Position numbers and translations under genes: made by a program. A DNA stretch of 64,000 nt from Escherichia coli (lineage in GTDB: Bacteria; Pseudomonadota; Gammaproteobacteria; Enterobacterales; Enterobacteriaceae): the NCBI RefSeq assembly GCF_044647545.1, contig NZ_CP172818.1, one strand, 5' to 3'. Below the pieces are notes generated by a model that saw only the letters and a list, made by a program, of their open reading frames with translations, did not search any database and was not told the origin of the DNA. The stretch's first letter is position 1, and each line of letters opens with the position of its first letter. Positions 15,044 to 15,962 of the stretch are shown here, one piece after another.

Positions 15044-15962
15044 ATATTATCACTTACTGGCGGCTCATACTGAGCTGGTTAATGCTGTGCACACACAAAC
15101 AAGCAATTCCATTTGTAATGTGCCTCCCTGGCAGTTTCATCCGGAACCCGGACGAAAGTAAAAATGCATATGAGTTGCACTAAAAAAGCGACTCACATTG
15201 TTCCGTTATAATGCCTGAAGTAGATCACAGAATATATCTTCAGGAATCGCATATCTATTAAGTTACTCACTCTTTTGTATTTATGACATGCGCGTGTTTG
15301 TATAAATGTAAATGTGAGTCCTTGTTCCACTCTCGTGCAGCATCGCTGGTCATACGCGAACACGTACAAACAGCAATGGTGAGGCGGCATCAAGAGCAGG
15401 GATCCGTCATTTATGCGAGCATTTTACCCCAAAAACCTTTTATTTATAAGGGTCATTGCGAATTATCTGATGCAAAGTTATGTTATGTTAGGCAAAGTAA
15501 TCTTCTATTATTAATAAGCACAACAAAACCTTTTTGAATATTAAATAATAATTAATTAGCATCATCCTCATACATTAATCCCGCTTAACAATAGTTTCAC
15601 ACCTTGCACCCATTACGACACATCGGAAATCATCACGCTGTTAAACTCTCCGTAATGCGGAAATATCATCATCACGATTCATTAGTGAATTCTTAAACGA
15701 GGCATTTTCAAACAATTATCTTACAGATAAAAAAACCACACTCACAATTAAGAATCAGAACAATTCACTACATAACATTAATTATTAAGCATATACACCT
15801 CATTATTTTGCCATTATTAAGTTATTAACAGCACAATCAAGCCTTCCACTCTGGCAAAATCTTATTCTGCAGACCTTCAAAACGCCGTCCTGGGGGAGTA
15901 CATTGTTCTAAGCTGACTTCCACGGCAGGGAGTGGCGATAACAGCAAAAAAGGTCAAGATTC
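15044..15962. promoter_or_regulatory. Divergent lrhA/alaA control region (919 bp, AT-rich)
   Basis: Long non-coding, AT-rich gap between divergent genes; short direct repeats (attattaag at about 15783 and 15815); only short low-quality ORFs. Confidence 0.4.

What the first reader, a model, noticed from the sequence alone, without database searches (positions are those of the whole stretch)
15044..15962. Unusually long (919 bp) AT-rich divergent region between lrhA and alaA
This is the largest non-coding gap in the window. It is strongly AT-rich in 15530..15830, has short direct repeats (attattaag) and only poor-quality small ORFs. The size and composition suggest a complex control region (autoregulated lrhA; alaA reported as Lrp-sensitive; likely nucleoid-protein binding) and leave room for an unannotated small RNA or small protein.
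Basis: partly seen in the sequence, partly recalled or inferred. Interest (0 to 1): 0.3.

Follow-up and report, generated by a model that had tools for sequence, protein, structure and literature searches.

The report
Known lrhA–alaA divergent control region
The 919-bp gap between lrhA and alaA in E. coli is a real, conserved two-way control region, about 40% of which is the already published long lrhA mRNA leader that small RNAs act on, so it is interesting biology but mostly known and holds no hidden gene.

Summary
The gap is 919 bp (15044-15962), the largest in the window, and its core is AT-rich (GC 0.30 against 0.525 for the window). The ATTATTAAG repeat is chance-level and not conserved.

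The gap resolves into these parts:
- The published 371-nt lrhA 5' leader (15414 to 15044, minus strand). Hfq binds it, and UhpU, ArcZ and RprA repress through it. The validated UhpU contact maps to 15059, and Term-seq 3' ends map to 15093 and 15329/15335.
- A conserved lrhA promoter (-35 at 15444-15449, -10 at 15421-15426).
- A roughly 426-bp AT-rich spacer between the two promoters, with one conserved island (15535-15603) at a fixed 151 bp from the lrhA -35.
- A conserved putative alaA promoter (15876-15904) and a roughly 53-nt leader with an invariant-loop hairpin (15916-15933).

Seventy-eight other Enterobacteriaceae keep the synteny, with gaps of 764-1140 bp. Published ChIP places Lrp at the lrhA promoter and OmpR in the gap.

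No small ORF is conserved, no terminator-like site lies inside the gap, Rfam gives nothing, and published Term-seq shows no 3' ends in the spacer. I found no independent sRNA or small-protein gene.

Verdict: already known in its main parts. The alaA hairpin and the upstream island remain unexplained.

The parts
15044..15414 (-). lrhA 5' leader (371 nt), from the transcription start (A at 15414) to the base before the ATG
   Evidence: Melamed 2023 states a 371-nt 5' UTR. Their fusion primer SM079 starts the lrhA fragment at ATAAATGACGGATCCCTGCT, which is the window sequence read downwards from 15414. The leader folds more stably than shuffles (z = -2.4). Hfq co-immunoprecipitates leader fragments, and full-length lrhA mRNA rises in an hfq mutant (PMC4152368).
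15044..15123 (-). Conserved start-codon-proximal part of the leader: sRNA-pairing and ribosome-binding platform. It holds an SD-like AGTGA (15050-15054), CACAGC (15084-15089) and AAATGGAATTGCTT (15101-15114).
   Evidence: Mean identity to the window across 79 sequences is 0.67, against 0.42 at alaA four-fold degenerate sites. Conservation is at the sequence level; RNAalifold finds no consensus structure. CACAGC is complementary to the GCUGUGU shared by RprA and McaS (sequences; my inference).
15055..15075 (-). UhpU pairing site; the experimentally validated nucleotide is 15059 (-16 from the ATG)
   Evidence: The lrhA-M1 gBlock changes GCCGCCAGT to GCCGCGAGT, which maps to window 15059. The compensatory uhpU-M1/lrhA-M1 result is reported in PMC10578931. 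My duplex scan gives -32..-12 pairing with UhpU nt 225-246 at dG -20.1.
15121..15137 (-). Predicted ArcZ pairing site (AAACUGCCAGGGAGGCA)
   Evidence: Duplex scan: ArcZ nt 59-79 (processed seed) pairs with -94..-78 at dG -19.7. ArcZ represses an lrhA-lacZ fusion. The exact site is my inference. It is conserved in Escherichia and only partly conserved elsewhere.
15093..15093 (-). RNA 3' end inside the leader (-50 from the ATG), giving a roughly 322-nt leader fragment
   Evidence: Adams et al. Term-seq: MG1655 2406691(-), 25,757 reads, Rho score 1.06 ('No'), intrinsic terminator score 3.7. Coordinate converted with an offset of 2391598.
15329..15335 (-). RNA 3' ends giving an abundant 80-86-nt 5' leader fragment, just after a strong predicted hairpin
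   Evidence: Term-seq 'orphan' 3' ends at MG1655 2406927 and 2406933(-), with 25-78 thousand reads. The predicted hairpin spans leader nt 38-73. This distal leader is the least conserved part of the gap (0.27).
15421..15449 (-). lrhA core promoter: -35-like TTATAA (15444-15449), 17-bp spacer, -10 TAAAAT (15421-15426), start 7 nt downstream
   Evidence: Read directly from the sequence. The -10 is TAAGAT, TAAAAT or TAGGAT in 69 of 79 sequences and the -35 is TTATAA in 64 of 79. Block identity is 0.66. A conserved TCAGATAATTCGCAAT lies just upstream at 15455-15470.
15535..15603 (.). Conserved AT-rich upstream island (lrhA-sense: TGTGAAA..ATTGTTAAG..ATTAATG..TTAATTAATTATTATTTAATATT), a probable multi-factor binding region
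   Evidence: Identity is 0.61 against a neutral 0.42. Its distance to the lrhA -35 is 151 bp with an interquartile range (IQR) of 150-152 across 79 sequences. The factor that binds it is not identified. Lrp at the lrhA promoter and OmpR in the gap are known from ChIP at lower resolution.
15604..15854 (.). Poorly conserved AT-rich spacer whose length is conserved; it contains the chance ATTATTAAG repeat
   Evidence: Identity is 0.35, at or below neutral. The distance between the two -35 elements has a median of 424 bp and an IQR of 418-428. The control nuoA-lrhA gap is just as constant in length. No Term-seq 3' ends fall here.
15855..15904 (+). Putative alaA promoter: conserved upstream AAAATCTTnTTCTG, -35 TTCAAA (15876-15881), 17-bp variable spacer, -10 TACATT (15899-15904)
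   Evidence: In alignment A1, TTC and the second and third A of TTCAAA, and T, A and both final Ts of TACATT, are invariant; the other hexamer positions are at least 90% conserved. The 17-nt spacer varies in sequence but not in length. No experimental start site was found. The simple consensus scan missed it at 8 of 12 matches.
15910..15962 (+). Putative alaA leader (about 53 nt) with SD AAGG at 15950-15953
   Evidence: This is the most conserved block of the gap (0.76). Its estimated length is 47-54 nt across 79 sequences.
15916..15933 (+). Conserved stem-loop or palindrome ACTTCC-ACGGCA-GGGAGT in the alaA leader; function unknown
   Evidence: CC..GGCAGG is invariant, and the A and C that begin the loop are at least 90% conserved. 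In the 9-pair test, 81.5% of cells are paired, against 41-57% for slid controls. One pair covaries (AU 50, GC 14, GU 11), and U-G/U-A alternation fits the alaA-sense RNA. The RNAalifold consensus is weak at -3.7 kcal/mol. Rfam has no match.

Best explanation
The gap is a composite, anciently conserved divergent control region for two genes. It is not empty DNA and not a hidden gene.

lrhA is transcribed leftwards from a weak sigma-70-type promoter (-10 at 15421-15426) that starts at 15414. This gives an mRNA with a 371-nt leader. Factors bound upstream set the transcription rate. Lrp (at the lrhA promoter) and OmpR (in the gap) are shown by ChIP. LrhA autoregulation is from the literature as I recall it. 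The conserved island at 15535-15603, held exactly 151 bp from the -35, is the likely platform for these factors; that step is inferred.

Hfq and the sRNAs UhpU, RprA and ArcZ pair within the conserved last ~100 nt of the leader, next to the ribosome-binding site. They reduce LrhA synthesis. This is shown in the literature, and the sites are mapped here. Stable Hfq-bound leader fragments of about 80 nt and about 322 nt accumulate.

alaA is transcribed rightwards from a conserved TTCAAA-17-TACATT promoter about 426 bp from the lrhA promoter. Its short leader carries a conserved hairpin. Both the promoter and the hairpin are inferred from conservation only.
For: - Identity and boundaries.
- The leader start is given in PMC10578931 and maps by primer sequence to 15414.
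- The validated UhpU contact maps to 15059.
- Hfq binds leader fragments, and lrhA mRNA rises without Hfq.
- Term-seq 3' ends lie inside the leader only.
- Seventy-eight Enterobacteriaceae loci keep alaA and lrhA divergent, with gaps of 764-1140 bp (median 943) and GC 0.35-0.44.
- Conservation is concentrated in the predicted functional blocks, at 0.61-0.76 against 0.42 at four-fold degenerate sites.
- Promoter hexamers and their spacings are conserved.
- Lrp ChIP-seq, OmpR ChIP and sigma-70 holoenzyme SELEX peaks place these proteins on the region.
- In Serratia and E. coli, transposon insertions in this gap raise PigU/LrhA.
Against: - The alaA start site and promoter are inferred from conservation alone. 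I found no experimental start site, and Shimada 2014 lists a different candidate (TTAAGA-17-TATAAC, near 15741-15769).
- The factor that binds the 15535-15603 island is not identified. Its TGTGA half-site is not a convincing CRP site (sequence reading only).
- The tight length conservation is not special to this spacer: the nuoA-lrhA gap is equally constant.
- The distal leader is poorly conserved even though it gives an abundant fragment in K-12.
- A transposon 825 bp upstream of pigU raises pigU in Serratia, and this model does not explain that mechanistically.
Confidence: 0.85

Rival explanations
1. The lrhA leader fragments (about 80 nt and about 322 nt) are functional trans-acting RNAs in their own right, for example sponges that titrate McaS, UhpU or other Hfq-dependent sRNAs. 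On this reading the gap does encode a small RNA, but one derived from the leader.
For: - Abundant, discrete 3' ends at 15329/15335 and 15093.
- Hfq-bound bands of about 150 and 350 nt.
- McaS gives the most RIL-seq chimeras with lrhA yet does not repress it, and the authors suggest possible McaS inhibition.
Against: - No experiment shows trans activity.
- The distal leader that forms the 80-nt fragment is the least conserved part of the gap (0.27).
- Such fragments can simply be decay intermediates of sRNA-directed cleavage (discussed).
Confidence: 0.2
2. An independent, unannotated sRNA gene or other discrete regulatory element lies in the distal spacer near alaA and represses lrhA, as Smith et al. 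2023 speculated.
For: - Transposon insertions about 825 bp upstream of pigU raise pigU, and more reads map upstream of the insertion.
- Complementation of Pantoea lrhA needed about 921 bp of the gap.
Against: - No terminator-like site lies inside the gap on either strand; the one hit is inside alaA.
- Rfam has no match.
- No Term-seq 3' ends in MG1655 2407013-2407560 in three data sheets.
- Spacer sequence is at or below neutral conservation.
- In E. coli, 825 bp upstream falls at the alaA promoter, so promoter disruption or read-out from the transposon is a simpler explanation (my inference).
Confidence: 0.07
3. The gap encodes a small protein or a regulatory upstream ORF.
For: Twenty-eight ORFs of at least 10 aa exist in the gap, several inside the lrhA leader. 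One example is the 15-aa MELLVCVCTALTSSV starting at the conserved AAATGG.
Against: - No ORF is kept in more than 19 of 78 loci, and those that are kept overlie promoter or leader sequence blocks.
- The ATG in AAATGGAATTGCTT is replaced by AAG or AGG in many genera while GGAATTGCTT stays conserved.
- Neither RefSeq record annotates anything here.
Confidence: 0.05
4. The AT-rich core is horizontally acquired or H-NS-silenced filler DNA with no specific function.
For: GC is 0.30 over 300 bp, and most of the spacer sequence is poorly conserved.
Against: - Synteny, length and AT-richness are kept in all 78 related loci across many genera.
- A conserved island sits at fixed spacing.
- The spacer has no HNS flag in the genomic SELEX table, while neighbouring rows carry one.
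Confidence: 0.05

Closest known systems
E. coli K-12 lrhA 5' UTR / 'ig-lrhA-alaA' Hfq-bound RNA (Bilusic 2014; Melamed 2023; Adams 2021)
   Same: It is the same locus. The start site (15414), the validated UhpU contact (15059) and the Term-seq 3' ends (15093, 15329/15335) all map onto the window. The window strain differs from most E. coli genomes by about 2.5% in the gap.
   Different: Nothing essential. The window comes from a different lineage (100% match to FDAARGOS_497), with a few substitutions in the leader, for example GTTTGTAC against GTTGGTAC.
Serratia alaA-pigU intergenic region, and hexA/pecT/lrhA loci of Pectobacterium, Dickeya and Pantoea
   Same: All have a divergent alaA and LysR-type regulator pair with a long gap. 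Insertions in the gap raise the regulator, and ArcZ controls the homologues.
   Different: I could not fetch these more distant loci, so sequence-level conservation of the islands beyond Enterobacteriaceae is untested.
csgD-csgB divergent region and the csgD, flhDC and rpoS long leaders
   Same: These are long AT-rich divergent spacers bound by many transcription factors, combined with a long 5' leader that acts as a hub for several Hfq-dependent sRNAs. Shimada 2014 groups lrhA-alaA with csgD-csgB and nanC-fimB.
   Different: The partner gene here is a housekeeping aminotransferase rather than a co-regulated operon. Far fewer factor sites have been mapped.

Membership tests
Long 5' leader acting as an Hfq/sRNA regulatory hub | A mapped transcription start far upstream of the start codon, with a matching promoter | tested here: met
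   The published 371-nt UTR maps to 15414 through the primer sequence. A -10 TAAAAT sits 7 nt upstream and is conserved in 79 sequences.
Long 5' leader acting as an Hfq/sRNA regulatory hub | Direct sRNA pairing shown by compensatory mutation | not testable with these tools
   Reported for UhpU-M1/lrhA-M1 in PMC10578931. I only mapped the mutated base to 15059 and found a matching predicted duplex.
Long 5' leader acting as an Hfq/sRNA regulatory hub | Hfq binding and Hfq-dependent mRNA level | not testable with these tools
   Reported in PMC4152368.
Independent Hfq-type sRNA gene | Own promoter plus an intrinsic terminator or a defined 3' end, outside an mRNA leader | tested here: not met
   No terminator-like site lies inside the gap. 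Published Term-seq 3' ends lie only inside the lrhA leader.
Described RNA families (Rfam 15: riboswitches, leaders, sRNAs) | Covariance-model match | tested here: not met
   Searched 13400-16200 on both strands at E up to 10. The only match inside the gap (15478-15543) is a eukaryotic snoRNA model at 18.3 bits, far below its gathering score of 50.
Small-protein gene or regulatory upstream ORF | ORF with start, frame and stop conserved across genera | tested here: not met
   The best ORF is kept in 19 of 78 loci and overlies the lrhA promoter. Most are kept in 0-10 loci.
Divergent sigma-70 promoter pair | Two -35/-10 hexamer pairs with 17-bp spacers, conserved while the spacers vary | tested here: met
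   lrhA. alaA. The alaA start site itself has no experimental support in what I could read.
Lrp-regulated promoter region | Lrp occupancy with an expression change in an lrp mutant | not testable with these tools
   Reported for lrhA by ChIP-seq plus RNA-seq. The Lrp motif was not tested here because degenerate AT-rich motifs are uninformative in DNA of 30% GC.
H-NS-bound or horizontally acquired AT-rich island | Patchy phylogenetic distribution and H-NS occupancy | tested here: not met
   Present with the same synteny in all 78 loci that contain both genes. No HNS flag in the SELEX table. In vivo ChIP was not examined.
Structured cis-regulatory RNA in the alaA leader | Helix supported by compensatory changes | tested here: inconclusive
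   One pair covaries (AU 50, GC 14, GU 11) and pairing exceeds the slid controls. The helix is short, the covariation may come from only a few clades, the RNAalifold energy is -3.7, and the fold z-score is 0.02.

The most novel reading that the evidence does not exclude
Two conserved pieces of the gap remain unexplained, and either could be an undescribed regulatory element.

(a) The stem-loop CUUCC-ACGGCA-GGRAG at about +6 to +23 of the alaA leader, with a near-invariant loop. It could be a binding site for an unknown protein or RNA that controls the main alanine transaminase.

(b) The AT-rich island at 15535-15603, at fixed geometry from the lrhA promoter, or the spacer around it. It could be the distal negative element of lrhA/pigU that transposon insertions in E. 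coli and Serratia point to genetically.
Probability: 0.2. Interest if true: 0.45.

Novelty: already known. Interest (0 to 1): 0.2.

Why it matters
LrhA (PigU, HexA, PecT) is a master switch for motility, fimbriae, RpoS, virulence factors and, in recent reports, CRISPR-Cas. How its level is set therefore matters. The length of this gap is explained mostly by features already published: a 371-nt leader that integrates several sRNAs, and a multi-factor upstream region.

What this analysis adds is a base-level map onto the window and a conservation map across 79 Enterobacteriaceae. The conservation map shows which parts are under constraint: the proximal leader, both promoters, one upstream island and the alaA leader hairpin. 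It also shows which are not: the distal leader and most of the spacer. That narrows where to look for the still unexplained distal control of lrhA/pigU and for any regulation of alaA.

Tried and rejected
- Rfam at permissive E-values gave only noise.
- The consensus promoter/terminator scan gave counts no higher than shuffles. Its hits at 15808-15837 (+) and 15462-15491 (-) fall in poorly conserved sequence, so I did not adopt them.
- Unrestricted RNAduplex gave unrealistically long duplexes. I replaced it with a windowed scan, which is ambiguous for RprA and McaS.
- RNAalifold on the proximal lrhA leader found no consensus structure.
- I searched for the alaA hairpin and -10 motifs upstream of alaC, avtA and alaE in MG1655. 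There were no matches, so there is no evidence for a shared regulon.
- I tested whether length conservation of the spacer is special. The nuoA-lrhA gap is equally constant, so I do not read it as a unique constraint.
- The protein homology search for distant LrhA homologues (Serratia, Pectobacterium) returned only close Enterobacter and Citrobacter relatives, so it did not extend the taxon range.
- I could not obtain Thomason 2015, Kim 2010 or Gibson & Silhavy 1999. The SMRT-Cappable-seq supplements held no entries for alaA or lrhA. No experimental alaA start site was found.
- I considered CRP (TGTGA-N6-TGTTA), IHF-like and sigma-54-like readings of conserved motifs by eye. None fits its consensus well, so none is claimed.

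Full report
**Identity and observation**

The window is E. coli. The gap sequence is 100% identical to strain FDAARGOS_497 and is present in 5425 of 5426 complete E. coli genomes, in most at 95-99% identity. lrhA lies at 14105-15043 on the minus strand and alaA at 15963-17180 on the plus strand, so the gap is 15044-15962, 919 bp. MG1655 has a gap of the same length, and neither record annotates any feature in it.

By annotation it is the largest gap in the window; the next are nuoA-lrhA at 629 bp and yfbV-ackA at 337 bp. GC is 0.379 over the gap and 0.302 over 15530-15830, against 0.525 for the window.

The ATTATTAAG repeat exists at 15781 and 15813. It is expected by chance in this composition, since 25% of local shuffles do as well, and it is absent from all related loci.

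**What is already published for this gap**

- Melamed et al. 2023 report an 'unusually long 371 nt 5' UTR' for lrhA. RIL-seq chimeras link it to UhpU, ArcZ, RprA and McaS. UhpU (shown by compensatory mutation), ArcZ and RprA repress an lrhA-lacZ fusion.
- Bilusic et al. 2014 found Hfq-bound RNAs of about 150 and 350 nt from 'ig-lrhA-alaA', a roughly 1.5-kb lrhA transcript, and higher lrhA mRNA without Hfq.
- Adams et al. Term-seq lists 3' ends at MG1655 2406691, 2406927 and 2406933 on the minus strand. It lists none in the rest of the gap.
- Lrp ChIP-seq classifies lrhA as a direct Lrp-activated target.
- OmpR ChIP is enriched at the gap.
- Shimada et al. 2014 show sigma-70 holoenzyme SELEX peaks there and list the '920 bp-long lrhA-alaA' spacer among long multi-factor spacers. 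The table has no HNS flag for it.
- Smith et al. 2023 show that insertions in the Serratia alaA-pigU gap raise PigU. They explicitly speculate about unannotated elements such as sRNAs.

**Mapping onto the window**

- The Melamed fusion primer begins the lrhA fragment at ATAAATGACGGATCCCTGCT. This is the minus-strand sequence starting at 15414. The leader is therefore 15414 to 15044.
- Seven nt upstream of the start lies TAAAAT (15421-15426). A further 17 bp upstream lies TTATAA (15444-15449).
- The lrhA-M1 construct changes the C at 15059, which is -16 from the ATG. This agrees with my predicted UhpU duplex at -32..-12.
- The ArcZ seed is predicted to pair at 15121-15137.
- The CACAGC at 15084-15089 is complementary to the GCUGUGU shared by RprA and McaS. 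This is my inference from the sequences.
- The Term-seq 3' ends convert to 15093 and 15329/15335, giving leader fragments of about 322 and 80-86 nt. The shorter fragment ends just after a strong predicted hairpin.

**Comparative analysis**

A scan of species-representative genomes returned 80 loci across Enterobacteriaceae. In the 78 that contain both genes, alaA and lrhA are always divergent neighbours. The gap is 764-1140 bp (median 943) with GC 0.35-0.44.

I measured identity to the window sequence per block. The neutral yardstick is 0.42, the identity at alaA four-fold degenerate sites.

| Block | Coordinates | Identity |
|---|---|---|
| Proximal lrhA leader | 15044-15123 | 0.67 |
| Mid leader | 15124-15283 | 0.40 |
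| Distal leader | 15284-15413 | 0.27 |
| lrhA core promoter | 15414-15463 | 0.66 |
| Upstream island | 15535-15603 | 0.61 |
| Spacer | 15604-15863 | 0.35 |
| alaA promoter | 15864-15909 | 0.68 |
| alaA leader | 15910-15962 | 0.76 |

The alignments show the individual motifs. The lrhA -10 and -35 hexamers are conserved.

The estimated leader length varies from 334 to 587 nt, with a median of 400. The geometry upstream of the promoter is much tighter: the island lies 151 bp from the -35 (IQR 150-152), and the two -35 elements are 424 bp apart (IQR 418-428). I do not over-read this, because the neighbouring nuoA-lrhA gap is equally constant (629 bp, IQR 626-631).

**The alaA side**

TTCAAA (15876-15881) and TACATT (15899-15904) are almost fully conserved. 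In A1, TTC and the last two As of TTCAAA, and T, A and both Ts of TACATT, are invariant; the remaining positions are at least 90% conserved. They are separated by a 17-bp spacer of constant length and variable sequence, which is the signature of a promoter. This predicts a start near 15910-15911 and a leader of about 53 nt. I found no experimental start site, and Shimada 2014 lists a different candidate, so this remains inference.

The leader contains ACTTCC-ACGGCA-GGGAGT (15916-15933). CC..GGCAGG is invariant, and the first two loop bases are at least 90% conserved. A nine-pair test gives 81.5% paired cells against 41-57% for slid controls. One pair covaries (AU 50, GC 14, GU 11), and U-G/U-A alternation fits only the alaA-sense RNA. 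The consensus energy is weak, the local fold is unremarkable, Rfam has nothing, and the motif is not found upstream of alaC, avtA or alaE. I record it as a conserved element of unknown function.

**Hidden-gene tests**

- None of the 28 ORFs of at least 10 aa is kept in more than 19 of 78 loci. Those that are kept overlie sequence-conserved promoter or leader blocks.
- The ATG of the 15-aa ORF in the proximal leader is not conserved, while the adjacent GGAATTGCTT is.
- No terminator-like site lies inside the gap, and published Term-seq shows no 3' ends outside the lrhA leader.
- An independent sRNA or small-protein gene is therefore unlikely. Leader-derived fragments acting in trans remain possible but unshown.

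**Conclusion**

The finding is real, but its main content is already in the literature. It combines a long sRNA/Hfq-targeted lrhA leader, a multi-factor AT-rich upstream region and a divergent alaA promoter.

Its Lrp guess is supported, at least for lrhA. Its suggestions of nucleoid-protein binding, a repeat and a hidden gene are not supported. It also missed that about 40% of the gap is a known transcribed leader.

Three points remain open: the factor that binds the island at 15535-15603, the alaA leader hairpin, and the genetic hint of a distal negative element from the Serratia and E. coli insertions.

Noticed in passing
window 13476-14104 (nuoA-lrhA gap): This second long gap (629 bp) has a very constant length across 73 Enterobacteriaceae loci (median 629, IQR 626-631). 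Published Term-seq lists abundant 'orphan' 3' ends just upstream of nuoA (MG1655 2405082/2405086, roughly window 13485-13489) and at 2405297 (roughly window 13700). This suggests a processed or attenuated nuo leader.
   Followed up: partly
L089 (NZ_CP144928.1, strain SCPM-O-B-12142); breakpoint at about window 15796: In this E. coli strain only the last 166-167 bp of the gap next to alaA remain. An IS1 element and elaD fragments abut them, so lrhA and everything between elaD and the gap are absent from this stretch. The retained piece still contains the putative alaA promoter. Forty-two of 5425 genomes cover less than 80% of the gap, and 28 show it split into two places.
   Followed up: partly
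window about 57514-59515 (+), between smrB and the yfcO-type fimbrial operon: An 'AAA family ATPase' gene and an overlapping 'hypothetical protein' gene sit here in the matching genome. The pair looks like a strain-variable insertion, possibly a defence-type gene pair. I did not examine it.
   Followed up: no
L024 (Lelliottia sp.) and L082 (Entomohabitans teleogrylli), proximal lrhA leader: The Lelliottia locus lacks about 60 nt of the otherwise conserved proximal leader, including GGAATTGCTT and CACAGC. The Entomohabitans locus has an insertion of about 170 nt at the same place. These are natural variants that could test the importance of the sRNA-pairing platform.
   Followed up: no
P0001, P0003 (protein database entries of 375 and 382 aa): Some gene calls for LrhA are 63-70 residues longer than the 312-aa protein while being 99-100% identical over the shared part. 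These are possibly mis-called starts that extend into the leader. I did not check them.
   Followed up: no
window 14074 (about 31 nt after the lrhA stop codon): Term-seq places the primary lrhA 3' end at MG1655 2405672/2405673, only about 31 nt after the stop codon. The printed flanking sequence shows no obvious GC-rich hairpin followed by a U-run. The mode of termination is unclear.
   Followed up: no
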